64,000 nt of DNA from Candidatus Doudnabacteria bacterium (GTDB lineage: Bacteria; Patescibacteriota; Doudnabacteria; UBA920; O2-02-FULL-48-8), in the NCBI GenBank assembly GCA_039931165.1, contig JBDTSL010000004.1, positions 21,028 through 85,027 of the forward strand. Direction: 5' to 3'. Under the pieces are notes generated by a model, which saw only the letters and a program-made list of their open reading frames with translations, ran no database searches and was not told where the DNA came from. Both the position numbers and the translations under genes were made by a program. This document shows, piece by piece, positions 11,894 to 58,276 of this stretch. How positions within the stretch are numbered: position 1 is the first letter of the stretch; each line of letters begins with the position of its first letter.

Positions 11894-13042
11894 TTATTTT
11901 TGCGTAGTTTCCTGTTGCCAGTGATGTGATGCAAACGCGCCTAGAGTGATCAGCCAAAGTCCGAACAATACTATCCAACCCACGATCGGAATTAAGCCCA
12001 GAAGCAGCATGATCACAGCGCCGACCCCGAGATCCCGCCAGTGATTTGGGCCTGCATTTTTTTGATACCAACCCCAAACCAACCTTCCTGTATAAAACAT
12101 GACCAGAACGGAAGAAATTACAAGAAGCAAACCGTAACTGAGCATAACTATCAGTCCCAAATATACCCCAACCACGGTAATCATCAAAATAATCGCGAGA
12201 ATAGGCAGGACTACCAGTACCGCAAATCCGATTCCAAGGTCGTGCCAAGGTCTAGCCAGAGCCTCTTTGACCACAGACGCAACTTTGGCTGGAAAAAGCC
12301 AAACCAGGACCAAACCCGCGGCAAGGAGCATCAAGAATTTAAATATGCTGCCGATAATCATCATACCGGCGAAACCGCCTTTTTGAGCCACTTGTTTGTT
12401 TACTTTAGTAAACTCAATCGGTCCGACTTTAGCGCCTGGCATCACAACCGCTTCCACGGGTCCTTTAAAGCTAATTTTCCCGCTTACCTCTGCATTTGAT
12501 CCAAAGGTCAGGCTCTTGCTGGCCATGATTTCAATAACGTTGCCGCTGACCTTGCCATTGATCGTAACTTCACCGCCTCCGATTTTTAGGTTCCCGGTTA
12601 CATCAGAATCCACGGAAATATTGCCTCCACCGATCACAAGATCTCCGCCAATGCTTGCTTTTTGCGCGACAGATATATTGCCGCCGGCCACAACAAGATC
12701 CCCGTTGACAGGGCCGCTGATGGAAATATTTCCGCCCGCTATACGGGCAGTTTCACCCACCGAACCATTGATATTCAAATTTCCGCCCGCGACCAATAGA
12801 TCTTTTTCAACGTCCCCATTAACTGTGACCACTCCGCCGGCAGCGGCAAGATCACCTTTGGTTTGGCTGTTTACTGTGACGTTCGCTCCCGCTATGTAGA
12901 GATTTTTATGCGTCTCTTTCTGCAAGGTTGAAACATTGGAGTCGGTCTTGCTTGCCGGAGCTATAAACTCAGCCGCTTGGACGGTTACTGCCGCCAAAAA
13001 AGATAACGCGATCACCGCGCCTAAAACCTTAACTTTGTTCAT
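11894..13042 (-). CDS. signal-peptide plus polytopic C-terminal membrane protein with bactofilin-like beta-helical repeats
   Basis: Repeated GDLxVAGGNISV / GGNLNINGSV units typical of polymer-forming cytoskeletal (bactofilin/DUF342-like) folds; N-terminal signal peptide; C-terminal approx. 5 TM helices. Confidence 0.45.
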   Translation of the reverse strand: MNKVKVLGAVIALSFLAAVTVQAAEFIAPASKTDSNVSTLQKETHKNLYIAGANVTVNSQTKGDLAAAGGVVTVNGDVEKDLLVAGGNLNINGSVGETARIAGGNISISGPVNGDLVVAGGNISVAQKASIGGDLVIGGGNISVDSDVTGNLKIGGGEVTINGKVSGNVIEIMASKSLTFGSNAEVSGKISFKGPVEAVVMPGAKVGPIEFTKVNKQVAQKGGFAGMMIIGSIFKFLMLLAAGLVLVWLFPAKVASVVKEALARPWHDLGIGFAVLVVLPILAIILMITVVGVYLGLIVMLSYGLLLVISSVLVMFYTGRLVWGWYQKNAGPNHWRDLGVGAVIMLLLGLIPIVGWIVLFGLWLITLGAFASHHWQQETTQK

Positions 13043-16474: not shown

Positions 16475-17227
16475 ATGAAAAATAAATTTTGGTTAATCTT
16501 AGCTCTGATTTTACTCGCCGCCGGTGGAGCGTATTTTGTTTCCAAAAATCCTACCGCTCACAAAGTGGCGGATGTGGTCGTAGGTAAAACCCCGCCTCAG
16601 CCACCCGATATAACTTTCAATCCCTCTGTTCCTGATGTCGTGAAGGCGACTTCAGCTTTGCTGAACGTTCCTTTTGTTTCGCAGGCCCCGACCGGGAACT
16701 GGGCTGATCAGAAACAGGAAGACGGCTGTGAAGAAGCTGCGGTGCTCATGTCCTGGCTTTGGATCAATGATAAGTCAATCACTCCGGCCGATGCGGAAAA
16801 GACCATTATCAATATGGCTGACTTTGAAACCGCCCATTACGGAAATTATGCCGATACGGACGCGCAGGATACTGCCAAATTTTTCACCGACTATTACGGC
16901 TATACGAATATTGAAGTGAAAATCAATATCACGATTGATGACATTAAAAACGCTCTGCGGGCAGGCAAGTTGGTCTTAGCTCCGGCCAATGGCACCAAAT
17001 TAGGCAATCCGCATTATAAATCACCTGGCCCAACCACCCATTTTTTGGTCATCAAAGGTTTTGACGATGCCACGGGGTTGTTTACCACAAATGACTCAGG
17101 GACTCAGTATGGCAAAAACTACACTTATAACTATCAAACTTTATTTAACGCATTGGTAAATTATCCCACAGGCAATCATCTGGATCAGACAGGCCGGCCC
17201 AAGGCCATGATCATCGTGACAAAATAA
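16475..17227 (+). CDS. membrane-anchored papain-fold (peptidase C39-like) domain protein
   Basis: N-terminal TM; VPFVSQAPTGNW...DGCEEAAVLMSW (Cys region) and HFLVIKGFDD...FTTNDSG (His / Asp-Asn region) resemble the C39_2 / BtrH-like architecture. Paralogue at 36130-36780. Confidence 0.5.
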   Translation: MKNKFWLILALILLAAGGAYFVSKNPTAHKVADVVVGKTPPQPPDITFNPSVPDVVKATSALLNVPFVSQAPTGNWADQKQEDGCEEAAVLMSWLWINDKSITPADAEKTIINMADFETAHYGNYADTDAQDTAKFFTDYYGYTNIEVKINITIDDIKNALRAGKLVLAPANGTKLGNPHYKSPGPTTHFLVIKGFDDATGLFTTNDSGTQYGKNYTYNYQTLFNALVNYPTGNHLDQTGRPKAMIIVTK

Positions 17228-32935: not shown

Positions 32936-33310
32936 TTATTGGATAAGTTGCTGAATGTCCGAAGGTTTGATCTGCTGAACTTGATTCAGGCTGACTCCGC
33001 TTGAAGAAAAAATCACTGTGGCCAATATCACGAAGAGTAGGATCGATATCGCGGTTAGCGCCACACAAATCAACGCGGCTTCCTGGCCGTCTTCCTTGCC
33101 GCTAAAATAAAATTTAACCGCAAAAAATATGCCGACAGGAGGAACGGCTACCGAAATTATGTAGGCCCATTTTTTTTGTTTATCGGTCAGCTGGTCGGCC
33201 TTCCCGCTCTGCATGGCCATAATGGCCAAGGCCGCAACATCAATTTTTTTGTCCTGCTGGGCCAGTCTTTTGTAGGTTTCGAGCTCTTGAGCCAGTTTAT
33301 CTTCATTCAT
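32936..33310 (-). CDS. hypothetical membrane protein
   Basis: 124 aa; two hydrophobic helices in the C-terminal half. Confidence 0.3.
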   Translation of the reverse strand: MNEDKLAQELETYKRLAQQDKKIDVAALAIMAMQSGKADQLTDKQKKWAYIISVAVPPVGIFFAVKFYFSGKEDGQEAALICVALTAISILLFVILATVIFSSSGVSLNQVQQIKPSDIQQLIQ

Positions 33311-33346: not shown

Positions 33347-34864
33347 TTACGCGAAACCCGGAAAGAAATCGATTTTGATCTGACTGCCCGGAATTCCAAG
33401 AGTTTTCAGGTTTTTTTCGAACGCCACGACCATACCGTGCGAACCCGAAATATAAAACATCCGTTCCTTATAATCCCCGACTTCGTCTGTGATCTTTTTT
33501 GCGGTCAGGTGGCCGTCTCTTTCCGTCATGATGTAAACGGTTTTGATCCCAAGCCTTTGCTCGGCTTGTTCAAAAATCTCCCGATAGCTGGCTTCGTCTT
33601 GGTTTCTGTTCGAGTAAAACAAAACGATATTCCTTTTTTCGTTACGGTCCAGAAGATATTTGATCATGCTCCGGAAAGGAGTGATGCCGATGCCTCCTGC
33701 CAAGAACACAAGCTTTTTTTTCGGGTCATCAGGTAAAGTAAAATCCCCGGATAATTGTCCGGCCAAAACTTCGCTCTCCGGTTTCAGGGCAATCAAAGTT
33801 CGTTTAAAACTGCTGGCTTCAGGGTAAAATTTTACCCCTATATGGACATCGGGTTCTGTCGGAGAAGACGCTAAAGTAAAATACCGGCGATTGCCTCTGC
33901 TGTCCGGATTTTTATGACCTACGGTCCATTCCATATATTGCCCGGGCTTGAAACTTAGGCGGCTGTTGGCCCGAAACACAAAGTCGTACGTATCCGAACC
34001 CATTTCCTTAATAGCCTTAAGTGATAACATGTATTTTTCCTTGGGGCTCAGAATGTATGAAAAAACATTTCCGGCCAGTAGTGCCATCTCTGGAGTTGAG
34101 TAGAAAGAACCGATGTGGATGTTTGGTCCAAAAAGCAAACCCACCAAAGCTCCATAAATAATCCTGGCCGATTTCCTGGGCGGCGTGGTCAGCGGCTCAG
34201 TCAGCATGATGAAAGCAAAAAATATGATCGGAGAATGCATCAAAATCTGTTGGATCAGAACAAACGGAGTAGAACGGGATGGTGAAAACGCGACGATCGA
34301 AACTGCGGCAGCAAGCAAGAAACTTATGACCAGTTCGAAGCGCTGGATTTTACGGGTAACCAGTAGCCCTCCTAAGATCACCAGGGGCAACAGCGACAAG
34401 GTTCCCACCCACCAGCTGGCCGATTGATTGATGGTCAGGGCTGTCAATGCAACGGCAAATGCCGCGGGATTGAAAAAATGTTTTCCCCGGAAAGCCAAAA
34501 TATATTTTACAGACATGCCCCAAACCGCGGCCCAGAACAAAAACATCAGGCTGCTGAAATAACCGGCTCCGGATGCGGCAGGTGGAGTTATAATTAATGC
34601 CAAAATCAAGGCTGTGATGTATACCGACTCGACGTTGGCCGGCACTTTAAACACTCGGGAAAAAGTTTCGTTTGCAGCCCAACAAATCACCAATAGAATT
34701 AAAACTTCAAAAATAAGATCCAACGGCTTGAAAGCCAAAATCCCAAGAGCGGAAAAAACCACGGCTACGATTACCAACACCATCAAAAAATACAGCACCA
34801 GCCGGTACATCGTGATTTTGTTCAAATAACTATCAATAAAGTTAAGCATTGGCATACTCTTCAA
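33347..34864 (-). CDS. membrane-bound FAD/NAD(P)-binding oxidoreductase (polytopic N-domain + FNR-like C-domain)
   Basis: N-terminal approx. 250 aa with 6-8 TM helices; C-terminal RRYFTLASSP (FAD-binding R-x-Y-S/T-like) and FLAGGIGITPFRSM (NAD-binding) motifs. Confidence 0.6.
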   Translation of the reverse strand: MKSMPMLNFIDSYLNKITMYRLVLYFLMVLVIVAVVFSALGILAFKPLDLIFEVLILLVICWAANETFSRVFKVPANVESVYITALILALIITPPAASGAGYFSSLMFLFWAAVWGMSVKYILAFRGKHFFNPAAFAVALTALTINQSASWWVGTLSLLPLVILGGLLVTRKIQRFELVISFLLAAAVSIVAFSPSRSTPFVLIQQILMHSPIIFFAFIMLTEPLTTPPRKSARIIYGALVGLLFGPNIHIGSFYSTPEMALLAGNVFSYILSPKEKYMLSLKAIKEMGSDTYDFVFRANSRLSFKPGQYMEWTVGHKNPDSRGNRRYFTLASSPTEPDVHIGVKFYPEASSFKRTLIALKPESEVLAGQLSGDFTLPDDPKKKLVFLAGGIGITPFRSMIKYLLDRNEKRNIVLFYSNRNQDEASYREIFEQAEQRLGIKTVYIMTERDGHLTAKKITDEVGDYKERMFYISGSHGMVVAFEKNLKTLGIPGSQIKIDFFPGFA

Positions 34865-35588
34865 ATCCGCTGGTCATAGTCGCGATCTTATTATTATCAA
34901 TCATATAACCTTCGAAGCCTGGCAATTTTTCGATAAAAACTATCCCTTCCTTTCCCATGGCGAACGCTGCGGTGGCAAACCTGTCAGCTTCGTAAATATT
35001 CGGCCCGATCACTGTCAGGCTGATTATATCAGCAATATCTTGACCGATATCGTGAGGATTGTAAATATGCTGGCCGCGGATATATGTCCCGGAAGTGGCG
35101 ATGCCTTCGGACTTGAGAAAGACCACTTTTAAGATCTGCTTTTGGTCAAAAGGATTCTTGATCCCCACTCGCCATGATTTTCCCTGGCCGTTGCTGCCGC
35201 TGACCTGGACGTCTCCGCCGGCTTCAATAAAATAATTTTTAAAACCGGCTTTTTTTAGAATTTCAGCGGCATTGTAAATCGCCCAGCCTTTGACCAGACC
35301 CGAAGGATCAGATGTCCCGTCCGGTTTTTTGATGTCGAAGTAACCATTGGTTTGGTTTTTCGTCTGTTCCGAAAGCTCGAGCATGTTTTTCATTAGGGCG
35401 CTTATGTCCGCGGGTTTGATCTCGCCCCTGTTCATTCGGCTCATCTCGCTGTCAAACTTATATGTGCTGAAGCGCCGGTCGATCTGGTCAAAGTAATTAA
35501 AAATTTGCTCCAAATCCCCTGCCGTTACAAGGCTGTCGATCACCTCTACGGTTACCGGCATACCCATAATAATCCTGGTCGATTTCAC
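34842..35588 (-). CDS. apbE: ApbE-family FAD:protein FMN transferase
   Basis: Shows the ApbE fold regions (MGMPVTVEV, GWAIYNAAEILKKAGFKNYFIEAGGD, ATSGTY); 248 aa, slightly short. Confidence 0.75.
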   Translation of the reverse strand: MKSTRIIMGMPVTVEVIDSLVTAGDLEQIFNYFDQIDRRFSTYKFDSEMSRMNRGEIKPADISALMKNMLELSEQTKNQTNGYFDIKKPDGTSDPSGLVKGWAIYNAAEILKKAGFKNYFIEAGGDVQVSGSNGQGKSWRVGIKNPFDQKQILKVVFLKSEGIATSGTYIRGQHIYNPHDIGQDIADIISLTVIGPNIYEADRFATAAFAMGKEGIVFIEKLPGFEGYMIDNNKIATMTSGFEEYANA

Positions 35589-35601
35589 AAAAAAATTACT
35601 C

Positions 35602-36036
35602 CTAATTTTTAGCCTGAGCCAGGGCTGAAGCCAAAGTTTGCCTGTAAGCCAGACTTGATTGCGTTGCCCCAGAAACGATGTTCACATTCGCGCTCTGGAC
35701 TTGGATTGCCTCCTGCTTCATGATCGGCATTGCCTGAGTATTGATTTGAATAGAGGTGCGGCGATCGTTGGGATATTGCAGAAATATAATATCGGTTATT
35801 TTACCGCCTGAAATTACGGCATTAACCTGAAAAGGTCCATAAAAAGCATCGGCAACCATACCCATATACTGTCCGTCCTTATATAGAGCCTTGGTCTGCG
35901 GAGTCGGATAAACTGGAGTTTGATCCGTAGGCGTTGTGGTAACGGTATTGTTGGTACTTTTTAAAATGCTTCTCTCGTAAGCGACATAAACAACAAATGC
36001 CAGCACAACTGTCAGCGACAAAAGGAATTTTTTCAT
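35602..36036 (-). CDS. FMN-binding domain protein (extracytoplasmic, flavinylation target candidate)
   Basis: Signal/TM at the N-terminus; FMN_bind-like C-terminus with ..IVSGATQSSLAY (S/T-G-A-T flavinylation motif). Confidence 0.6.
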   Translation of the reverse strand: MKKFLLSLTVVLAFVVYVAYERSILKSTNNTVTTTPTDQTPVYPTPQTKALYKDGQYMGMVADAFYGPFQVNAVISGGKITDIIFLQYPNDRRTSIQINTQAMPIMKQEAIQVQSANVNIVSGATQSSLAYRQTLASALAQAKN

Positions 36037-36129
36037 AAGAATATTATACCCGATATATCTTATGCGGCCAAACTTGAAAGATATTTCTGGGTACTTTCAA
36101 AATAGTTCCGCAGCATCTATAATTAGAGC

Positions 36130-36780
36130 ATGAATACTAAATCAATTTTGCTGGCTGGGCTGGGAATAATTGTTATCATCGCGGTGGGATTTGTTTTTTC
36201 ACGCCCTCGGATCCCTAAAACCCTGATTCTGGCAGTTCCATTTACCGCTCAAGCGCCGACCAATAACTGGTCTCGCAACGAGGACTGCGAAGAAACAAGC
36301 GTCGCTATGGCCACAGCTTACCTTAACGGCCAATCCGGGGACATGATGTCTGCGGGGGATGCCCAGAATGCCATAAATCAGCTTAAAAATTGGGAGAATA
36401 TCAACACCGGCTACAATGCCAATACCGGCGCTGATGCCACCACAAAAATGGCCGAAGGTGCGTTCAAACTGAAAGTGACACAGATCAAGGACTTTACCGA
36501 ACTCGATCTGAAGTCGGCGCTGGCGAAGCATCATCCGGTGCTCCTGCCTATCAATGCCAAATTGCTTGCCAACACTTACAAGGACAACGGCCCGACTTAT
36601 CACATGATAGTGGTCCGAGGCTTCGACGAGCGCGGCTTCATCATCAATGACCCGGGTACGAATTCCGGAGACGGGAATGTCTATACATTTGAAACTTTAA
36701 AAAATGCTTCAGCCAATTGGAATCAAACGACAGGCTCAATGGAATCGGCAAATAAGATCGCTTTAATATTGTCTAAATAA
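36130..36780 (+). CDS. membrane-anchored papain-fold (peptidase C39-like) domain protein, paralogue of 16475-17227
   Basis: VPFTAQAPTNNWSRNEDCEETSVAMATAYL and HMIVVRGFDERGFIINDPG mirror the motifs of the other copy. Confidence 0.5.
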   Translation: MNTKSILLAGLGIIVIIAVGFVFSRPRIPKTLILAVPFTAQAPTNNWSRNEDCEETSVAMATAYLNGQSGDMMSAGDAQNAINQLKNWENINTGYNANTGADATTKMAEGAFKLKVTQIKDFTELDLKSALAKHHPVLLPINAKLLANTYKDNGPTYHMIVVRGFDERGFIINDPGTNSGDGNVYTFETLKNASANWNQTTGSMESANKIALILSK

Positions 36781-36795
36781 TGTTGATGCTTTCTT

Positions 36796-36869
36796 TGGCT
36801 GGGGAGGAAGGATTCGAACCTTCGATGATGGATTCAGAGTCCATTGCCTTACCACTTGGCTACTCCCCA
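36796..36869 (-). tRNA. tRNA-Gln (anticodon CUG)
   Basis: Minus-strand TGGGGAGTAGCCAAGTGGTAAGGCAATGGACTCTGAATCCATCATCGAAGGTTCGAATCCTTCCTCCCCAGCCA folds as a cloverleaf: 7-bp acceptor with U1-A72, D-arm GCC/GGC, anticodon stem ATGGA/TCCAT with loop CTCTGAA, T-arm GAAGG-TTCGAAT-CCTTC, and encoded CCA. Confidence 0.8.
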
Positions 36870-41992: not shown

Positions 41993-43831
41993 TCAATCGA
42001 ATTGGATTTTATCGCCGGGTTTGAGCGTTCCCTGCTTTTGTTCCGGTTCGGCGGGTTTGGTTTCTTCGGTTTTGATTACCGGGGGCGCCGGTTGAATCCG
42101 CGGCTGCTGTTCGGGTACTTGCTTTTTTGAAGCATCTTTACCGAGCGAAAGTGCCAGAGAACTGCTTAAATCCTCCAGAGCCGAAGTGGCTTTCCCAACT
42201 CTCTCGGTAATCTTTTCCGCCGCCAGCTTATTCACAGTTTCCCAAACCGGGTTTTGCGCGGGTTTTTTATCCGCCATTCTTCTGCCCGAATTATTTTCCG
42301 ACTGCTGTGCCGGCCTCCGTTCGGGTCTCCTGGTTTCCTGTCTGCGCGGCTGTTCAGACTGGCTGATCCTGGGGGCAGAAGGCACCGGCCTTTCAGAACG
42401 AGTAGCCGGAGCCGGAAGCGCTTGGTTGACTTGGACAGGAGGAGAAATAACCGCCGGACGGTCCTGGTAGCGTAAACTTTCTTGCAGCTCTTCTTGCTCA
42501 ACAGCGCCGCTCTCTGACGCAGCGGCTTGAGCGTGAAATTCCGAACCCATCCACTTGTTGATCTTCTCTTCCACTCCTTCCCGTTTGTTCGCATAGCGTT
42601 CCCTGGAAATACTGACAACTTTTTCTTCGTTGCCGGTGATCTCCGCGATTGGCGGCAGAGTTGTCGCAGAAAAAGGTGTCGATGAAACTCCGTTGATCAT
42701 CAGCTTCAAATAAACGTGATATTTGGTCAGATTGACCAGATCGTTCAGCAGATACGTCGGGTCGAATTCCTTTTCCAAAAATTCGGCGTCGTCAGCCCCG
42801 GTGCGGAAGCAAATCAATGTTCCGACGTTGCCGAAGATCGCATCCCTGACAACAGTATTTTTTTTATCCGTGACCAGCTGGCCGATGTACTGATGGGCCA
42901 CGATCAAATTCAGCCGGTATTTCCGGGCTTCGGACAGAATGTTTGCGAAAGATTCGGTGGCAAAGTTCTGGAACTCGTCCACATACAGATAAAAATCCTC
43001 CCGTTCTTCCTCAGGAATATCCACGCGGCTCATGGCCGCAAGCTGTAGCTTGGTAATGATCATGGCGCCCAGCAAAGCCGAATTGTCCTCGCCGATCCTG
43101 CCTTTCGACAGGTTGATCAGGAAAATTTTCTTGTTATCCATGATCTCCCGCAGATCAATGGAGCTTTTCGTTTGGCCCACAATGTTGCGGATAATGGCGG
43201 ATGATAAAAATTGCCCGACCTTGTTTTGAATAGGCGCGATGGCCTCGTTTCGGAATTTGTCGTTGTAATTGGCGAACTCATCCACCCAAAACGATTTGAC
43301 CACGGGATCTTTGATATTATCCACAATCCTTTTCCGATAGGTTTTGTTGACCAGCATCCGAGCGATTCCGAGCAAAGTATTGCCTGGCGAATCAAGCAGG
43401 GCCAGAATCGTGTTGTTCAGAATATACTCCATTCGCGCCGACCAGACTCCGGCCCAGATCTTCGTGAACACGCCCATCAGTCCTGATGCCACCAAATGTT
43501 TATATTTCGGGTCTACTGATTCCAAAGGGTTAAAAGCAATGGGAAAATCGCTGTCCGCGGGATTCAGATAGACTACGTCATTAACCCGGTTGGACGGGAT
43601 GTAGTTGAGGATCTTTTCCACGGAGTCGCCATGCGGATCTACAAAAGCAACCCCATGCCCATCCTGAATGTCCTGGATGACCATATTTTCGATGAGGGTG
43701 GTTTTGCCCATCCCGGTTTTGCCGATGATATACATGTGGCGCCTGCGGTCATCCCGGCGGATACCGAAAGACACATCCCGGTTCCGGAAATTGGTTTTTG
43801 CGAACAGTGTTATGTCATTATCAGAGGCCAT
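41993..43831 (-). CDS. FtsK/HerA-superfamily P-loop ATPase, TraD/VirD4 (type IV coupling protein)-like, lacking an N-terminal TM domain and carrying a Q/P/R/E-rich disordered C-terminal tail
   Basis: Walker A IIGKTGMGKTTL, DPHGD, Walker B FYLYVDEFQNF, and RKYRLNLIVAHQYIGQL (TraG/TrwB-like R..Q..QL region). The last approx. 170 aa are low complexity. Confidence 0.5.
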   Translation of the reverse strand: MASDNDITLFAKTNFRNRDVSFGIRRDDRRRHMYIIGKTGMGKTTLIENMVIQDIQDGHGVAFVDPHGDSVEKILNYIPSNRVNDVVYLNPADSDFPIAFNPLESVDPKYKHLVASGLMGVFTKIWAGVWSARMEYILNNTILALLDSPGNTLLGIARMLVNKTYRKRIVDNIKDPVVKSFWVDEFANYNDKFRNEAIAPIQNKVGQFLSSAIIRNIVGQTKSSIDLREIMDNKKIFLINLSKGRIGEDNSALLGAMIITKLQLAAMSRVDIPEEEREDFYLYVDEFQNFATESFANILSEARKYRLNLIVAHQYIGQLVTDKKNTVVRDAIFGNVGTLICFRTGADDAEFLEKEFDPTYLLNDLVNLTKYHVYLKLMINGVSSTPFSATTLPPIAEITGNEEKVVSISRERYANKREGVEEKINKWMGSEFHAQAAASESGAVEQEELQESLRYQDRPAVISPPVQVNQALPAPATRSERPVPSAPRISQSEQPRRQETRRPERRPAQQSENNSGRRMADKKPAQNPVWETVNKLAAEKITERVGKATSALEDLSSSLALSLGKDASKKQVPEQQPRIQPAPPVIKTEETKPAEPEQKQGTLKPGDKIQFD

Positions 43832-43880
43832 AGAATTTAGAATTTAGAATATAGAATATAGAATATAGAATATAGAATAT
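43832..43880. repeat. heptanucleotide tandem repeat (TAGAATT)x2-(TAGAATA)x5 immediately 5' of the ATPase start codon
   Basis: tagaatttagaatttagaatatagaatatagaatatagaatatagaatata on the plus strand (ATTCTA-type units on the coding strand). Confidence 0.8.
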
Positions 43881-43918
43881 AAAATTTAGAATAAAGTCCA
43901 AATTCCAAATTCCATATT

Positions 43919-45244
43919 CTACCTAATCGGCAGATCCATCGGCGGCGCCGATTTGACTGTCTGAACTCTCTCCAGCTGCGAAATCCTGGTATGCGGGACC
44001 TGCGGGAAGTGAAAAATACTCGCCAGCTCTTCGGTGTTCATGATGACCTTGCCTACGCCCTGCCAACTGCTGCGCGTTAAAATCCAATGCAGTATGTGCC
44101 GCCTGCGTTTCAACTTTTGATTTTCAATATATGGCCGCTCCAGCCTTTCGGAAATATGAAACGAAGGGCCTTCGGTCCAGCTGTGGCCTATATCGGGCTT
44201 CATGCCGTTGAGGTTAACATCATCAAAATTGCGGAAAGCTCCGACAATTTCCGGGATCCTCAAAGATTTGTTGATTTTTCCTTTGGGCGCCAGATAAAAA
44301 GTTCTGATACGGACTTCGTATCCGATTTTTGAAGCAGCATGTTCAATGGCGTTTATCGCCAGCTTTTCATTATCGGTTTTGTGAAGCATCAGGCTCGGCG
44401 GTTCTTCCTGCACTCGGGATGCTGGCGCATGCTCTTCAGCAGGCCCGGCAACAATGCCGACCAAAATTTTGGCGATCAGGTCAGGGACAAAATGAACAAT
44501 TTTCAGTAGCCAGTCATCCCCGTGCTTTTCCGGCACACCTTTCAGCTTTTCCACAAGATGTTTAGTGTGATTTTTCCAGGAATCATCAATGGGCTTGATG
44601 ACCAGCTGGAATAACAGCAATTCGTAAGGCTGGATATTACTCATGACCTCTATGACATTTGAAAGCGGATCGATAAATGTTTCCTGGGCGCCGTGCTCAT
44701 AAGACGAATCCTGCAGATATGTCCGGATCGGGTAAGCATTATCCTTCTTTTTCAGCCACTCCGTGCCCCAAAATTCAAAGTCCGCGTGTTCCGGATCATA
44801 ATGATGGGGCAGATTGCGCAGATAATCCTCGATTTCGCGGATCTCAGCCTTGGCGTATTGGGCAAACACCGCGCTTTCCAATAAATTCCGGAAACGGGTA
44901 GGAATTCTGAAAATATAAGAAACTTTGCCGCCCAGGCTGACAATTTCGCACGAAACAGATAAAACGGTTTTTCCGGACAACTGCTCGCCCCAGCTGTAGT
45001 TTGTATGTATCGCGTGCAGCGCCGCGAAGATCTGCTCCATAGCCAGCGGCGACTTTTCGTTCAGCTCATCGATCTTCACTTCCAAAAGAACCCATTCGAT
45101 CGAATTAGCGTACTTAATGCGGTTCGCGTCCCGCTTCAACCACCAGAGCATCCAGACCAGAAACACCAAAAAAACGGTCCACCCATACCCGCTGATCAAA
45201 ACAATGTCAACCAAATAATGAAAATAATCGCTAAGAAACGACAT
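43919..45244 (-). CDS. membrane-anchored hypothetical protein (441 aa)
   Basis: N-terminal hydrophobic helix (VDIVLISGYGWTVFLVFLVWMLWWL); contains GEQLSGKT (GxxxxGKT-like). Stop and start overlap the flanking genes. Confidence 0.35.
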   Translation of the reverse strand: MSFLSDYFHYLVDIVLISGYGWTVFLVFLVWMLWWLKRDANRIKYANSIEWVLLEVKIDELNEKSPLAMEQIFAALHAIHTNYSWGEQLSGKTVLSVSCEIVSLGGKVSYIFRIPTRFRNLLESAVFAQYAKAEIREIEDYLRNLPHHYDPEHADFEFWGTEWLKKKDNAYPIRTYLQDSSYEHGAQETFIDPLSNVIEVMSNIQPYELLLFQLVIKPIDDSWKNHTKHLVEKLKGVPEKHGDDWLLKIVHFVPDLIAKILVGIVAGPAEEHAPASRVQEEPPSLMLHKTDNEKLAINAIEHAASKIGYEVRIRTFYLAPKGKINKSLRIPEIVGAFRNFDDVNLNGMKPDIGHSWTEGPSFHISERLERPYIENQKLKRRRHILHWILTRSSWQGVGKVIMNTEELASIFHFPQVPHTRISQLERVQTVKSAPPMDLPIR

Positions 45245-54972: not shown

Positions 54973-55890
54973 TTATTTCAGTGCTTTTGCCTTGTACTTA
55001 TACAAGATCATCTTCATTAATAGCTTGGCGGCCATGAAGTCAGGAGCTTGAAGTCCTTTGATCGGGGCAAGCTCAACCAAGTCCATGCCGACAATATTTT
55101 TTCTTTTACAAACTTCGCGGATGATGGGCAAAATCTCGTCCCAAAAAGGCCCTCCTGGTTCCGGCGTGCCGGTGGAAGGGATCATGGCAGCGTCGAAGCA
55201 GTCAATGTCAAAACTAAGATAAACATTCTCTCCCAAGCTGTTTACGATCTCATCTATCTTCCAGCTCTTGCGGTCGCGCGCCAAAAAAACTTTCACGCGG
55301 TCAGGATTGCTCTGCCAAAATTCGTATTCCAATTTATTAAAATTCCTGATGCCCACCAGAGTAGCTTTCTTGATATTCGGTAAGCCTAAGGAATATTTCA
55401 ACCACGCCGCATGAGTGAATGGATTAAGCGACCACCTGTCTCCCAGATCTAAATGCGAATCGAAAACTAAAACCGATACTTCTTTATATTTTTCATTCAA
55501 AGCCTGGGCAAATCCGTAGCTGATCGAGTGCTCCCCGCCGATCACAACAGGTAATTTTTTGGCGTCAATAATTTCACTGACAATTTTTTTCAGAAGTGCG
55601 CAGGCGGCTTCCGGCTCTTTCGGCAGTTCGGGCTGATGTGTGGTCCAAAACTTGATCTGGTTTTGTATATCATCCAGCAATTCATCGTCAAATGTTTCCA
55701 CCTGATACGAGGCTTCGATCAAACCCGCCGGGCCTTTATCCGTCCCATGCCCAAAAGTCACCGTACCTTCATAACCGAAAGGCACTATAACAGCATCTGA
55801 TGAATCAAAAGTAATCTCGGGCTTAACGCCGAGATTAAAGATGTCCAAGAAAGGCTTAGGTTGATATGCTTTTTTAAGATCAAATATCAT
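54973..55890 (-). CDS. speB: agmatinase / arginase-family ureohydrolase
   Basis: GGEHSIS, DSHLDL and SFDIDCFDAA metal-binding motifs. Confidence 0.75.
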   Translation of the reverse strand: MIFDLKKAYQPKPFLDIFNLGVKPEITFDSSDAVIVPFGYEGTVTFGHGTDKGPAGLIEASYQVETFDDELLDDIQNQIKFWTTHQPELPKEPEAACALLKKIVSEIIDAKKLPVVIGGEHSISYGFAQALNEKYKEVSVLVFDSHLDLGDRWSLNPFTHAAWLKYSLGLPNIKKATLVGIRNFNKLEYEFWQSNPDRVKVFLARDRKSWKIDEIVNSLGENVYLSFDIDCFDAAMIPSTGTPEPGGPFWDEILPIIREVCKRKNIVGMDLVELAPIKGLQAPDFMAAKLLMKMILYKYKAKALK

Positions 55891-56855
55891 TGATTCAAAA
55901 CGTAAGCAAAAATCAGAGGTGCCACGATAGTCGCGTCAGACTCGATAACAAATCGAGGGGTGGTCACATCCAGCTTGCCCCAGGTAATTTTCTCATTGGG
56001 CACGGCTCCCGAATACGAACCATAAGAAGTAGTAGAATCCGATATCTGGCAAAAATAGCCCCACAGTTTGCATTTTTCCCGTAGATCCTGTTGGATCAAC
56101 GGCACGACGCAAATTGGAAAATCTCCCACAATTCCCCCGCCGATCTGGAAAAAACCAATATCTGAATCCTTGGAATTTTGTTTATACCAGTCGATCAAAT
56201 ACGCCATTTGTTCCATTCCTGATTTCACCACGCCGTAATCTGATACTTCCTTGCGTATGACGTTTGCCACAAATATATTGCCTAATGTGCAATCCTCCCA
56301 GCCCGGGGTAAAAATCGGGATATTTTTCTCGCAGGCGGCCAGAACCCAGGAATTCTTCGGATCGATCTGGTAAAATTCCTTCAGTACGCCGCCGCGAATG
56401 AGCTGATACATAAACTCCCAAGGGAAATATCTCTCCCCTGCCTTATCAGCGTTCTTCCAAAATTTGAGGACCAACCGTTCGATCCGACGCATTGCTTCTT
56501 CCTCAGGAATACAGGTGTCAGTGACGCGGTTAAGGTTGTTTTTCAGCAGATCGACCTCATCCTGATCCGAAAGATTTCGGTAATTAGGTATCCTTTTATA
56601 GTGATCGTGAGCGATCAAATTAAAAATATCTTCTTCCAGGTTATTCGCGCTGCATGATATGGCGTGAATTTTGTCCTGGCGGATCATTTCAGCCAAAGAC
56701 AAGCCTAACTCAGCAGTGCTCATGGCTCCGCCCATGGCCAAAAACATCTTGCCGCCTTTTTCCAAATGCTTGACATATGCTTCAGAGGCGTCCACCACAA
56801 CCGCGGAATTGAAATGGCGGTAATGGTGTTTGATAAAATCTTTTATCGGTCCCAT
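55887..56855 (-). CDS. deoxyhypusine synthase-like (DHS/homospermidine synthase family) protein
   Basis: 322 aa; NAD-binding Rossmann-like fold with the FQIGGGIVGDF motif typical of DHS-like proteins. Confidence 0.55.
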   Translation of the reverse strand: MGPIKDFIKHHYRHFNSAVVVDASEAYVKHLEKGGKMFLAMGGAMSTAELGLSLAEMIRQDKIHAISCSANNLEEDIFNLIAHDHYKRIPNYRNLSDQDEVDLLKNNLNRVTDTCIPEEEAMRRIERLVLKFWKNADKAGERYFPWEFMYQLIRGGVLKEFYQIDPKNSWVLAACEKNIPIFTPGWEDCTLGNIFVANVIRKEVSDYGVVKSGMEQMAYLIDWYKQNSKDSDIGFFQIGGGIVGDFPICVVPLIQQDLREKCKLWGYFCQISDSTTSYGSYSGAVPNEKITWGKLDVTTPRFVIESDATIVAPLIFAYVLNQ

Positions 56856-56908
56856 ATATTTTGGGTTAATTATGTAGCCTTTTCTTCTTTAGCAAGGCGG
56901 GCCGCCAA

Positions 56909-58276
56909 TTACCAACCGAACTGCTTGCCAACTTCTTCTGATGTCTCGCGCCGGCGCGCCAATTTGATCTCCCCGTTCTGGCAGATGATTTTTGCCGGAC
57001 TGGATAGCAGGCAATGATGCGAAGCCAGAGGGTCTTGATAAGCGCCGGTGTCATAAAACGCCACGTACAAGTCCTCGCCGTTTAGGTCCTCCATGCGCGG
57101 CATAAAAATATTACCGCCGCCAGACGTATATCTGTCGTCGGAATCACAGCTAGAACCGGCAAACCACACTGATTGCAGTTTATTTTCCTTCATATAATTG
57201 ACCGGGGTCACGTGCCATTTCCATTTGATCGACCAGGTATCCAGCAGGTCGTTCATAAAACTGCCGTCAATCACATACCACTTGCGTTTACTGCCCTCGG
57301 ACACGGCTTTTTCAGCGATGATCTTATAAATTGTGATCTGCGCCGGTGAAGCGACATATCTTCCCCATTCCACGATCAGATTGGGGTGCTTCAGGTTATT
57401 TTTATCGCAGAATTTCTTGGCCACGCGCACGATCTGATTGATCGCGGTCTTCGCCGAATAGAACTTTCCCTTCTTTTCATAGGGAACGCCGGCGCCTCCG
57501 CCCAGATCGATCGTATCCAGCCCGGGATTGGTTTTTTTCAGTTCTTTAAAAATTTCCAAAGCCCGCTTGAACGGATGAACCAGGCCGTCTACGCGTTCTA
57601 TCTGTGAGGAGATATGATAGTGCAAAACACTCAAATTCCTGATCTTGCCGATTTTCAAAATTTCGTCCTCTTGAAACCCATAACGGTTAAAATGTTTATC
57701 CCAATGAGATCTGACCTTGACATTCATATTCAGACGGATACCGGTTTCGCCTTTGAATTTTTTGAACCGCTCAAGTTCTTTATAATCTTCAATGATCGGA
57801 ATGACCGTAAGTCCTTTGGCTTTCAGCTCTTCGATCAGTTTAATGTAGGCCTCATTTTTCGGCCCGTTGCAGATTACGCGGATCTTAGGGTTGAATTTTT
57901 CCTGCTCGAGCATGCGCTTGACCAGCCATAATTCATTCACGGAAGCCACATCGAAATGCCCACCTTCGGAAACGACAGGCAATACGAATTCCTTGTTCTG
58001 ATTGACCTTCATGGCGTAGTGGTAATAAAACCGGCCTTTATAGCCATGCAGCTTGATGTAGGCGTTGAAAATGTCGATCAGATCGCGGACTCGGCTCTCC
58101 AAAATGTGGGGGAAGACAACCTCAAGAGGCGAACCGTATTTTTTTATGAGTTCGAAAATATTGTATTGGTAATTTCCTTCTTTGACGACCAGCTTCCCGT
58201 CCCTGGTGATGTCAAATGGTTGAGTATTGTACTCCTCGACTCCGAGTTTCCAAAACCGTTTGAAATTTTTTTGCAA
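56909..58276 (-). CDS. PLP-dependent fold-III (Orn/DAP/Arg) decarboxylase, probable biosynthetic arginine decarboxylase
   Basis: HYAMKVNQN (PLP-lysine), DLGGGAGVPY, and SSCDSDD (EsGD-like) motifs; the N-terminus resembles the SpeA PLEVVFPHILESRV region. Confidence 0.55.
   Translation of the reverse strand: MQKNFKRFWKLGVEEYNTQPFDITRDGKLVVKEGNYQYNIFELIKKYGSPLEVVFPHILESRVRDLIDIFNAYIKLHGYKGRFYYHYAMKVNQNKEFVLPVVSEGGHFDVASVNELWLVKRMLEQEKFNPKIRVICNGPKNEAYIKLIEELKAKGLTVIPIIEDYKELERFKKFKGETGIRLNMNVKVRSHWDKHFNRYGFQEDEILKIGKIRNLSVLHYHISSQIERVDGLVHPFKRALEIFKELKKTNPGLDTIDLGGGAGVPYEKKGKFYSAKTAINQIVRVAKKFCDKNNLKHPNLIVEWGRYVASPAQITIYKIIAEKAVSEGSKRKWYVIDGSFMNDLLDTWSIKWKWHVTPVNYMKENKLQSVWFAGSSCDSDDRYTSGGGNIFMPRMEDLNGEDLYVAFYDTGAYQDPLASHHCLLSSPAKIICQNGEIKLARRRETSEEVGKQFGW

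What the first reader, a model, noticed from the sequence alone, without database searches (positions are those of the whole stretch)
33347..36036. ApbE flavin transferase + secreted FMN-binding domain protein + membrane FAD/NAD oxidoreductase: candidate extracytoplasmic flavinylated electron-transfer module
Three adjacent minus-strand genes encode three components. One is a signal-anchored FMN_bind-type protein with the S/T-G-A-T flavinylation motif (SGATQSS). One is an ApbE-family FMN transferase, the enzyme that covalently attaches FMN to such motifs. One is a 505-aa protein whose N-terminal polytopic membrane domain is fused to an FNR-like FAD/NAD(P)-binding domain (RRYFTLASSP, GGIGITPF). 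There are no Nqr/Rnf partner subunits. The architecture resembles the ferric-reductase/NOX-like extracytosolic electron-transfer systems associated with ApbE. That is noteworthy in what appears to be a reduced-genome organism and suggests a trans-membrane NAD(P)H-to-extracellular-acceptor route. A C39-like peptidase paralogue lies immediately divergent at 36130.
Basis: partly seen in the sequence, partly recalled or inferred. Interest (0 to 1): 0.65.

Follow-up and report, generated by a model that had tools for sequence, protein, structure and literature searches.

The report
NQR/RNF-like flavin electron-export operon
This is a three-gene operon of a tiny-genome (Patescibacteria) bacterium, already described from genome surveys, that probably passes electrons from NAD(P)H inside the cell to a flavin protein tethered outside; its one unexplained feature is that the flavin-attaching enzyme has no export signal.

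Summary

The gene order FMN_bind → ApbE → RnfD-FNR fusion is kept in about 65 of 77 related loci, and no fourth gene is conserved. Positive-inside analysis gives 10 TM helices with a cytoplasmic FNR domain and an outward FMN_bind domain. The RnfD covalent-flavin loop is deleted, so the only covalent FMN is on the partner protein.

One conserved anomaly is not discussed in the papers I read. The operon's ApbE is leaderless in all ~75 clusters examined, in both compact 245-aa and full-size 291-aa forms, while its substrate is anchored outside.

Verdict: a new member of a known, experimentally uncharacterised kind, of moderate-to-low interest.

The parts
36043..36071 (-). Promoter-like site TTGGCC-17-TATAAT immediately upstream of the FMN_bind start. 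The -10 box ends 7 nt before the ATG.
   Evidence: 10 of 12 matches. The number of such sites in the region is not above shuffled expectation, so only the position is suggestive.
35602..36036 (-). Gene 1: membrane-anchored FMN_bind protein (144 aa), the NqrC/RnfG-like flavinylated subunit.
   Evidence: PF04205 at 23.4 bits. A family profile hits the crystallised covalent-FMN domain 8P2A at E 1.8e-22. An orthologue lies upstream of ApbE in 65 of 77 loci.
35971..36027 (-). N-terminal signal anchor (MKK + FLLSLTVVLAFVVYVAYER), predicted N-in/C-out, followed by an S/T/P-rich linker.
   Evidence: KD19 of 1.93. The MKK-TM-polar linker pattern occurs in 73 homologues and in distant clusters.
35662..35673 (-). 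Flavinylation motif S122-G-A-T125. Thr125 is the predicted FMN phosphoester site.
   Evidence: SGA[T/S] (TGAT in one) is present in 73 of 73 homologues. S-G-A is invariant in A4. The motif aligns with the SGAT of 8P2A, whose Thr carries FMN in the crystal (PMC10339131).
34842..35588 (-). Gene 2: compact, leaderless ApbE (FAD:protein FMN transferase), 248 aa.
   Evidence: PF02424 at E 1.6e-40. AF2 pLDDT 90 and pTM 0.88, with the first strand starting at residue 2. Foldseek matches every solved ApbE/Ftp/FmnB, with TM-score 0.77-0.87 on the query and 0.62-0.71 on the target. About 45 residues corresponding to E. coli ApbE 105-149 are missing. TSG165, H174 and EAD202xxxT206 are present. P0121 is 100% identical and named FAD:protein FMN transferase, Candidatus Doudnabacteria.
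33347..34849 (-). Gene 3: RnfD/NqrB-like membrane domain fused to an FNR-like FAD/NAD(P)H domain. It is 500 aa from Met6; the longest ORF starts at 34864.
   Evidence: The ATG at 34849 overlaps the ApbE stop.
34040..34849 (-). RnfD/NqrB-like domain with 10 TM helices, N-in/C-in.
34409..34423 (-). Outward-facing S-A-S-W-W loop between TM5 and TM6. A149, W151 and W152 are invariant. It is what remains where canonical RnfD carries its ~60-aa flavinylation loop.
   Evidence: By hhalign extrapolation it maps to the canonical pre-TM6 GGxxGETS segment, not to the flavinylated Thr.
33350..34036 (-). Cytoplasmic FNR-like domain: FAD-binding beta-barrel plus NAD(P)H Rossmann fold, including RRYFTLASSP (33860-33889), GGIGITPF (33674-33697) and the C-terminal aromatic FPGFA.

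Best explanation
The locus is a three-gene operon (FMN_bind, ApbE, RnfD-FNR fusion) encoding an NQR/RNF-like trans-membrane electron-transfer module, in a Candidatus Doudnabacteria (Patescibacteria) genome.

Shown here: the cytoplasmic FNR-like domain has every FAD and NAD(P)H motif. It is fused to the C-terminus of a 10-helix RnfD/NqrB-fold domain. A small FMN_bind protein with a canonical SGAT flavinylation motif is anchored by an N-in/C-out helix. The operon encodes its own ApbE with intact catalytic signatures. No other Rnf/Nqr subunit and no conserved acceptor gene accompanies the module.

Inferred mechanism: NAD(P)H reduces FAD in the FNR domain. Electrons cross the membrane through one or two non-covalent flavin sites in the RnfD-like domain. 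These would be the riboflavin-type site, and the former covalent-FMN site that Huang et al. propose is visited by the partner's tethered FMN. The electrons then reach the covalently bound FMN on the outer-face FMN_bind protein, which reduces an unidentified extracellular acceptor such as O2, Fe(III), soluble flavins or quinones, or a host-derived oxidant. In a fermentative organism without a respiratory chain, the likely benefit is NAD(P)+ regeneration, iron reduction or oxygen scavenging, not energy conservation.
Against: Nobody has characterised any member experimentally, so direction, donor, acceptor and cofactor content are all inferred. The ApbE is leaderless in every cluster examined. 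This does not fit flavinylation on the outer face, where known extracytosolic systems use a secreted or lipid-anchored ApbE (PMC12052999). No acceptor gene is linked. FMN_bind passes the Pfam threshold only narrowly. The RnfD/NqrB fold is that of the ion-conducting subunit of a redox pump, so ion coupling cannot be excluded.
Confidence: 0.7

Rival explanations
1. Flavinylate-then-export variant of the same module. The leaderless ApbE works in the cytoplasm, where FAD is available, and modifies the C-terminal SGAT motif of the still-unfolded FMN_bind protein. The FMN-bearing chain is then translocated by Sec. This is a refinement of the best explanation, not an alternative identity.
For: ApbE is leaderless in all ~70 related clusters and in four distant ones, in two size classes. 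The model shows a globular protein whose first strand starts at residue 2, with no hydrophobic segment. The motif lies about 20 residues from the C-terminus, the last part to be translocated. From memory, not tested here: ApbE can modify short peptide tags, and SecYEG tolerates bulky side-chain adducts. The review notes that FAD delivery to extracytosolic ApbE is a problem that needs dedicated solutions (PMC12052999; PMC9973259).
Against: There is no precedent for exporting a phosphoester-linked flavin through Sec. An N-terminal signal anchor normally implies co-translational targeting, which limits cytoplasmic exposure. In Salmonella a cytosolically expressed ApbE could not complement (PMC12052999). 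Nothing here tests it directly.
Confidence: 0.3
2. Minimal ion-translocating redox pump. Electron flow through the RnfD/NqrB-like domain is coupled to Na+ or H+ movement, so the module conserves or consumes ion-motive force instead of only disposing of electrons.
For: The membrane domain has the fold of NqrB/RnfD, the subunits proposed to hold the ion path (PMC12174285 for the pumps in general). Family signature motifs (KHxFNP, TEPLTTPP, GG-x4-RK) are invariant. An ion-pumping pyrophosphatase in the window shows that the organism maintains an ion gradient.
Against: The subunits thought to gate coupling in Nqr/Rnf (NqrD/E or RnfA/E with their Fe-S centre, and the mobile NqrC/RnfG shuttle between them) are absent. 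Net outward electron transfer is itself electrogenic in the dissipative direction. No ion-binding residues were tested.
Confidence: 0.12
3. Heme-based NOX/ferric-reductase-type oxidase. A bis-heme membrane domain would carry electrons from the FNR domain to O2 or Fe(III).
For: The overall architecture of a membrane domain plus a C-terminal FNR-like domain is the same. NAD_binding_6 scores just above its threshold (22.6 against 22.2). SpNOX and NOX5 dehydrogenase domains are structural neighbours of the FNR domain.
Confidence: 0.02
4. Fragment of a canonical Rnf or Nqr complex whose other subunits are encoded elsewhere in the genome.
For: NCBI names family members 'RnfABCDGE type electron transport complex subunit D'. 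Only 64 kb of the genome is visible here.
Against: The fused FNR domain replaces the role of RnfC/NqrF. The RnfD flavinylation loop is deleted. None of 77 loci has RnfA/E/B/C neighbours. The window has no Fe-S motif or RnfA/E-like protein. The FMN_bind partner resembles stand-alone FMN domains and gives no RnfG/NqrC hit in the PDB.
Confidence: 0.03
5. Flavin acquisition or trafficking device. The outer FMN_bind protein captures flavin, the channel-like RnfD fold (related to Amt/urea channels) passes it, and the cytoplasmic ApbE/Ftp processes FAD and FMN in an organism that cannot make flavins.
Against: The invariant SGA[T/S] motif argues for a covalent redox cofactor, not reversible binding. 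The fully conserved NAD(P)H/FAD domain has no role in transport. ApbE keeps Tyr at the E. coli Tyr60 position, which I recall marks transferases rather than FAD pyrophosphatases (from memory).
Confidence: 0.04

Closest known systems
NQR/RNF-like flavinylation-associated system (Méheust et al. 2021, eLife, PMC8238504; Huang et al. 2024, PMC10979944)
   Same: The defining architecture is identical: an NqrB/RnfD (PF03116) membrane domain fused to an NqrF-type NAD-binding domain (PF00175), clustered with ApbE and an FMN_bind protein, with no other Nqr/Rnf subunits and no flavinylated Thr in the RnfD-like domain. The host range is also the same (CPR; the modelled example is the Chloroflexota species Ktedonobacter racemifer).
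   Different: Nothing essential differs. Added here: the operon ApbE is leaderless throughout, and in this clade it is also about 60 residues shorter than solved ApbEs. The FMN_bind partner is closer to the repeat unit of multi-flavinylated proteins than to RnfG/NqrC. The module is much more common in Patescibacteria (at least 595 species-level genomes) than the 127 clusters of the 2021 survey, which used a smaller genome set and required a SignalP-positive gene.
Rnf complex (RnfABCDGE), subunits RnfD, RnfG and RnfC
   Different: There are no RnfA/E, RnfB or RnfC subunits. The NAD(P)H module is an FNR-type FAD domain fused to RnfD, in place of the FMN/Fe-S protein RnfC. The TM5-TM6 loop carrying the covalent FMN is deleted. 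Electron flow is presumably one-way across the membrane and not semicircular. Ion pumping is unproven.
Na+-NQR, subunits NqrB, NqrC and NqrF
   Different: There is no NqrA/D/E, no 2Fe-2S domain on the FNR module, no quinone site evidence and no covalent FMN on the B-type subunit.
Listeria flavin-based extracellular electron transfer (Ndh2, EetA/B, PplA, FmnB)
   Same: A monoderm bacterium moves NADH-derived electrons to a surface protein carrying ApbE-attached FMN, for redox balance and not classical respiration.
   Different: Listeria uses a quinone pool and unrelated membrane proteins. Its ApbE homologue FmnB is an extracytosolic lipoprotein supplied with FAD by an ECF transporter (PMC9973259). 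Here there are no quinone-linked components, and the ApbE is leaderless.
Bacterial NOX / ferric reductase superfamily (e.g. SpNOX)
   Same: A single polypeptide with a membrane domain followed by a cytoplasmic FNR-like NAD(P)H/FAD domain ending in an aromatic residue, with outward electron transfer.
   Different: The NOX membrane domain has six helices and two b hemes on four histidines. This one is a ten-helix flavin-type RnfD fold without such histidines.
Cytoplasmic ApbE of Klebsiella pneumoniae (flavinylates soluble fumarate reductase; cited in PMC12052999)
   Same: An ApbE without a signal peptide that is functional in the cytoplasm.
   Different: Its substrate is a soluble cytoplasmic enzyme. 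Here the only candidate substrate in the operon is predicted to face outward.

Membership tests
NQR/RNF-like system (operational definition of Méheust et al. 2021) | One protein with an N-terminal NqrB/RnfD domain (PF03116) and a C-terminal NqrF-type NAD-binding domain (PF00175) | tested here: met
   PF03116 at 35.7 bits (cut-off 27.7), residues 154-270. PF00175 at 46.6 bits (cut-off 22), residues 387-481.
NQR/RNF-like system (operational definition of Méheust et al. 2021) | Encoded within five genes of an ApbE and/or FMN_bind gene | tested here: met
   All three genes are contiguous and co-oriented, with 13 nt and overlapping junctions. The same order holds in 64-65 of 77 loci.
NQR/RNF-like system (operational definition of Méheust et al. 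2021) | [quoted passage not shown] | tested here: inconclusive
   FMN_bind has an MKK + 19-residue hydrophobic N-terminus with no lipobox. ApbE has none. SignalP itself was not available.
NQR/RNF-like system (Huang et al. 2024 description) | Two-subunit complex without other Nqr/Rnf subunits; the RnfD-like subunit lacks the flavinylated Thr | tested here: met
   No partner subunits in the window or in the loci. The canonical DAVTxAT-PL loop lies 53 residues before the hhalign anchor, whereas this family has only about 13 residues there.
Canonical RnfD/NqrB subunit of Rnf/Nqr pumps | RnfD/NqrB ten-helix fold | tested here: met
Canonical RnfD/NqrB subunit of Rnf/Nqr pumps | Covalent FMN on a Thr in the periplasmic loop before TM6 | tested here: not met
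   The loop is deleted. The conserved S/T150 (94% S/T) maps to the canonical GGxxGETS segment and not to the flavinylated Thr.
Canonical RnfD/NqrB subunit of Rnf/Nqr pumps | Co-occurrence with RnfA/E + RnfB/C, or NqrA/D/E/F | tested here: not met
   None in the 64-kb window or within +/-6 kb in 77 loci. The rest of the genome was not visible.
NOX / ferric reductase (FRD) superfamily | Ferric_reduct six-helix domain with four conserved histidines ligating two b hemes | tested here: not met
   No PF01794 hit. Only H129 and H250 are conserved, and both are in loops. The fold is RnfD/NqrB.
ApbE / Ftp FAD:protein FMN transferase (PF02424) | Family HMM and fold | tested here: met
   PF02424 at E 1.6e-40. 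Foldseek E 1e-18 to 1e-14 against all solved ApbE/Ftp/FmnB, query TM-score 0.77-0.87.
ApbE / Ftp FAD:protein FMN transferase (PF02424) | Catalytic His and Mg-binding Asp/Thr, TSG flavin-phosphate motif, Tyr at the E. coli Tyr60 position (residue roles from memory of the V. cholerae, E. coli and T. pallidum studies) | tested here: met
   H174, D202/T206, T165-S-G and Y43 are invariant or nearly so in A3 and align with the E. coli enzyme. The motifs were located.
ApbE / Ftp FAD:protein FMN transferase (PF02424) | N-terminal Sec/lipoprotein signal, typical of ApbEs that serve extracytosolic substrates | tested here: not met
   The protein starts 7 residues before the first beta-strand. Maximum KD19 is 1.48 and there is no TM segment. 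All ~70 orthologues, the 120 best database hits (237-269 aa) and four distant clusters are leaderless.
FMN_bind domain (PF04205), ApbE substrate class | Family HMM | tested here: met
   23.4 bits against a cut-off of 22 (marginal). The family profile hits the FMN-binding domain 8P2A at E 1.8e-22.
FMN_bind domain (PF04205), ApbE substrate class | [S/T]GA[S/T] flavinylation motif with the modifiable Thr/Ser | tested here: met
   VSGAT125 here. SGA[T/S] (one TGAT) in 73 of 73 homologues. It aligns with the SGAT of 8P2A, where Thr carries FMN (PMC10339131).
FMN_bind domain (PF04205), ApbE substrate class | Actual covalent FMN and extracytoplasmic location | not testable with these tools
   Only inferred, from the MKK-TM anchor, the polar/acidic S/T/P linker and the published AlphaFold-multimer model of a homologous complex (PMC10979944).

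The most novel reading that the evidence does not exclude
In this whole family the flavin transferase works on the cytoplasmic side although its substrate ends up outside. Either the FMN_bind protein is flavinylated before or during Sec translocation ('flavinylate, then export', which would remove the need to export FAD), or ApbE reaches the outer face by an unrecognised leaderless route. Either would be a new mode of biogenesis for extracytosolic flavoproteins. It would also mean that surveys filtering on ApbE signal peptides undercount extracytosolic flavinylation in Patescibacteria and Chloroflexota.
Probability: 0.3. Interest if true: 0.65.

Novelty: new member of a known kind. Interest (0 to 1): 0.35.

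Why it matters
Patescibacteria are usually described as fermenters without membrane electron transport. This module may be their only membrane redox enzyme. It is common, found in at least 595 species-level genomes, so it bears on how these episymbionts balance NAD(P)H, cope with oxygen or obtain iron. The kind of system is already in the literature, so this locus does not change the picture. What it adds is a clear, testable inconsistency: a conserved leaderless ApbE paired with an outward-facing substrate. It also offers a compact three-gene operon that would be convenient for the first biochemical characterisation of the family.

Tried and rejected
1. Ferric-reductase/NOX reading of the membrane domain: rejected.
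2. A second covalent flavin on the RnfD-like domain at the conserved S-A-[S/T]150-W-W loop. It was attractive because position 150 is S/T in 94% of sequences and the flanking residues are invariant. It was rejected after aligning with canonical RnfD fragments that carry the DAVTxAT-PL site.
3. A conserved fourth gene (acceptor, transporter or regulator): none found. The best candidates are a generic ABC ATPase in 17 loci and an ECF-sigma-like gene in 13 of 77.
4. The C39-like peptidase and the small pilin-like ORF as parts of the module: not linked in related loci.
5. A mis-called ApbE start hiding a signal peptide: excluded. The ORF cannot extend upstream, orthologues begin at the same conserved MKxTR, and the upstream open codons in distant clusters are not hydrophobic.
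7. The NQR/RNF-like sheet of Méheust's supplementary table, which would list SignalP calls per gene, was truncated in the held copy.
8. The third protein search, seeded with an A. vinelandii RnfD fragment, returned only gene fragments. They were still sufficient.
9. Literature searches for experimental work on this system, or for ApbE in Saccharibacteria/Patescibacteria, found nothing beyond the two bioinformatic papers and a review.
Full report
**Observation.** The region holds three contiguous minus-strand ORFs: 35602-36036 (144 aa), 34842-35588 (248 aa) and 33347-34864 (505 aa). Pfam assigns them to FMN_bind (PF04205, 23.4 bits against a cut-off of 22), ApbE (PF02424, E 1.6e-40), and a protein with NQR2_RnfD_RnfE (PF03116, 35.7 bits, residues 154-270) followed by NAD_binding_1 (PF00175, E 6e-12). 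NCBIfam aligns residues ~280-501 with flavohemoprotein, Fre, NqrF and other FNR-type reductases, and residues ~150-245 with RnfD/RsxD/NqrB models.

**Operon structure.** Homologues of the fusion protein start at MLNxID, which puts the likely start at Met6 (position 34849). That ATG overlaps the ApbE stop codon as ATGCTTAA. The FMN_bind stop and the ApbE GTG start are 13 nt apart, with an AGGAG between them. A TTGGCC-17-TATAAT site lies directly upstream of the first gene, although such sites are no more frequent in the region than in shuffled sequence. The ApbE is 100% identical to an NCBI protein from a Candidatus Doudnabacteria MAG. The window's other genes are typical of Patescibacteria: type IV pilins, SecA/SecDF, a membrane pyrophosphatase and a T4SS coupling protein.

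**The membrane domain.**
- A profile of the N-terminal 270 residues from 24 family members hits a single solved protein, RnfD of the A. vinelandii Rnf complex (8ahx_D, E 4.4e-6).
- An AlphaFold2 model of the whole protein (pLDDT 79, pTM 0.70) shows ten membrane helices followed by a beta-barrel and a Rossmann domain.
- Across 80 family sequences the only conserved histidines in the membrane domain are H129 and H250, each in a loop, so there is no bis-histidine heme pattern.

**Topology.** In the same 80 sequences the loops alternate sharply in K+R content. The means are 1.40, 1.01, 2.10, 3.51, 1.14 and 4.42 for the N-terminus, alternate loops and the post-TM10 linker, against 0.23, 0.21, 0.10, 0.36 and 0.04 for the others. 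This gives N-in/C-in with ten helices and places the FNR domain in the cytoplasm.

The FMN_bind protein and 73 homologues share one layout: MKK (or a longer polar segment ending in KK), a ~19-residue hydrophobic helix, a variable S/T/P-rich or acidic linker, the FMN_bind domain, and the motif about 20 residues from the C-terminus. That is the signature of an N-in/C-out anchor.

**The flavinylation site.** SGA[T/S] (TGAT once) is present in 73 of 73 partner proteins, and S-G-A is invariant in the alignment. The family profile matches the crystallised domain 8P2A (SaFMN3-D2) at E 1.8e-22, with SGAT aligned. In that structure the Thr carries FMN, the protein has a midpoint potential of -184 mV, and its reduced form reacts with O2 (PMC10339131). 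No RnfG or NqrC chain was hit, so by sequence the partner is closer to the repeat unit of multi-flavinylated surface proteins than to the pump subunits.

**Is there a second covalent flavin?** The outward TM5-TM6 loop contains S-A-[S/T]-W-W. Its A149, W151 and W152 are invariant, and position 150 is S or T in 75 of 80 sequences. I tested whether this is the RnfD flavinylation site. Canonical RnfD fragments retrieved with an A. vinelandii RnfD segment carry DAVT(T/A)AT-PL 35-45 residues before the TM6 glycine motif. hhalign anchors the family's TM6 on the canonical TM6. From that anchor the canonical Thr lies 53 residues upstream, whereas this family has only about 13 residues between TM5 and TM6. 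By extrapolation, S/T150 falls on the canonical GGxxGETS segment. The flavinylation loop has therefore been deleted. This agrees with Huang et al., who reported that the site is not conserved and proposed that the partner's tethered FMN visits the vacated site (PMC10979944).

**Comparison with the literature.** Méheust et al. 2021 defined an "NQR/RNF-like" system by exactly this fusion (PF03116 + PF00175) inside an ApbE/FMN_bind cluster. [quoted passage not shown] Huang et al. 2024 modelled the Ktedonobacter racemifer complex. I found no experimental study of any member. The locus is thus a new instance of a kind that is known but uncharacterised.

**Distribution and context.**
- The fusion protein has thousands of close relatives, the best 120 all ~500 aa and 55-67% identical.
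Nearly all are Patescibacteria, and a few are labelled Chloroflexota.
- The membrane domain alone finds 370 clusters (at 50% identity) with E ≤ 1e-30 and 811 with E ≤ 1e-10.
- In 77 loci with the fusion gene, FMN_bind is adjacent in 65 and ApbE in 64, almost always in the order FMN_bind, ApbE, fusion.
- No other gene cluster is present in more than 17 loci, so no acceptor, transporter or regulator travels with the module.
- A few loci carry two FMN_bind genes or a two-domain partner.
- Clusters whose fusion protein is only 36-38% identical keep the same triad.

**The anomaly.** The window's ApbE begins MKSTRIIMGMPVTVEV, and its ORF cannot be extended upstream. All ~70 orthologues begin at the same conserved MKxTRxxMGMP. 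The few longer ORFs are non-hydrophobic out-of-context extensions. The 120 best database hits are 237-269 aa. The AlphaFold2 model is confident (pLDDT 90, pTM 0.88), and residue 2 is already in the first beta-strand. No 19-residue window reaches a membrane-helix hydrophobicity.

The enzyme matches every solved ApbE/Ftp/FmnB, with TM-score ~0.8 over the query but ~0.65 over the targets. It lacks about 45 residues corresponding to E. coli ApbE 105-149. It keeps the TSG motif, His174, Asp202/Thr206 and the Tyr at the E. coli Tyr60 position (the roles of these residues are from my memory of the V. cholerae, E. coli and T. pallidum work). In distant clusters the ApbE is either the compact form or a full-size 291-aa form, and it is again leaderless, with nothing hydrophobic upstream.

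Known extracytosolic flavinylation uses a secreted or lipid-anchored ApbE, and the known cytoplasmic ApbE serves a soluble cytoplasmic enzyme (PMC12052999). A leaderless ApbE conserved in an operon whose only candidate substrate faces outward is unexplained, and neither paper on this system mentions it. Méheust's pipeline kept only clusters with a SignalP-positive ApbE or FMN_bind gene. This may contribute to their statement that extracytosolic flavinylation is "strikingly underrepresented" in the CPR. I could not verify this because the relevant supplementary sheet is truncated in the held copy.

**Most likely mechanism.**
- Shown: the parts list, their folds, motifs, topology and linkage.
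- Inferred: NAD(P)H reduces FAD in the cytoplasmic FNR domain. The invariant residues are R-R-Y-F-T-x-A-S, G-G-I-G-x-T-P and the C-terminal aromatic. Electrons then pass through non-covalent flavin site(s) in the RnfD-like domain to the covalent FMN on the outer FMN_bind protein, and on to an unidentified external acceptor.
- In an organism without quinones or cytochromes this would regenerate NAD(P)+, reduce iron or consume oxygen. Outward electron flow dissipates membrane potential and does not build it, so energy conservation is not expected unless the RnfD-type domain still couples ion movement.

The rivals are weighed in the corresponding fields: pre-export flavinylation as a refinement, an ion-pump variant, a heme-based NOX, a fragment of a canonical complex, and a flavin-trafficking device.

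**Verdict.** The system is a new member of a known kind. Interest is moderate to low for the locus as such. The conserved leaderless ApbE is the one point worth an experiment.

Noticed in passing
window 16475-17227 (+) and 36130-36780 (+): Two paralogous Peptidase_C39_2-like proteins, each with an N-terminal membrane anchor (E 2e-26 to each other). Neither is linked to the flavin module in 80 related loci.
   Followed up: partly
window 36043-36071 (-) relative to the ATG at 36036: The -10 hexamer of the only good promoter-like site ends 7 nt before the FMN_bind start codon, so the operon mRNA may be leaderless or nearly so. A divergent promoter-like site at 36096-36123 (+) faces the C39-like gene.
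   Followed up: no
window 32936-33310 (-): A small two-TM protein (124 aa) lies 36 nt downstream of the fusion gene, with a weak T4SS_pilin match (E 0.003). It was seen near the module in only one other locus (L070).
   Followed up: partly
window 41993-45244 (-): A VirD4/TraG-type coupling ATPase (612 aa) lies next to a 441-aa membrane protein with no Pfam family. Together with the pilin-like ORFs, this is a patescibacterial T4SS-like set.
   Followed up: no
window 11894-13042 (-): A 382-aa protein with a signal peptide and about 8 predicted TM helices has no Pfam family.
   Followed up: no
window 54973-58276 (-): A deoxyhypusine-synthase homologue (55887-56855) lies next to an Orn/Arg/DAP decarboxylase (56909-58276) and an upstream 305-aa gene. 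This looks like a polyamine or homospermidine-type cluster in a reduced genome.
   Followed up: no
window 36796-36869 (-): tRNA-Gln (CTG), the only tRNA in the 64-kb window, lies between the C39-like gene and a GT2 glycosyltransferase.
   Followed up: yes
L083 5504-7137: In one distant cluster the triad is followed by a 204-aa Ferric_reduct/MsrQ-like membrane protein (weak hit), a glutaredoxin and a rhodanese. This may hint at an envelope thiol or sulfoxide-repair acceptor, but it was seen only once.
   Followed up: no
L057 4275-5222; L049 and L055: Some relatives have a two-domain FMN_bind partner (315 aa, two SGAT motifs) or two separate FMN_bind genes beside the fusion gene. This suggests short multi-flavin chains on the outer face.
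   Followed up: no
L018, L055, L071, L075 and L035: A minority of loci have FMN_bind directly next to the fusion gene with no ApbE between them. One (L035) has neither gene within 6 kb, so ApbE can be encoded elsewhere in those genomes.
   Followed up: no
window 34842-35588 (-), residue K100: The compact ApbE has Lys where E. coli ApbE has Glu169 (the residue mutated in PDB 4XGW) and keeps Tyr at the Tyr60 position. The functional meaning for transferase against pyrophosphatase activity is untested.
   Followed up: partly
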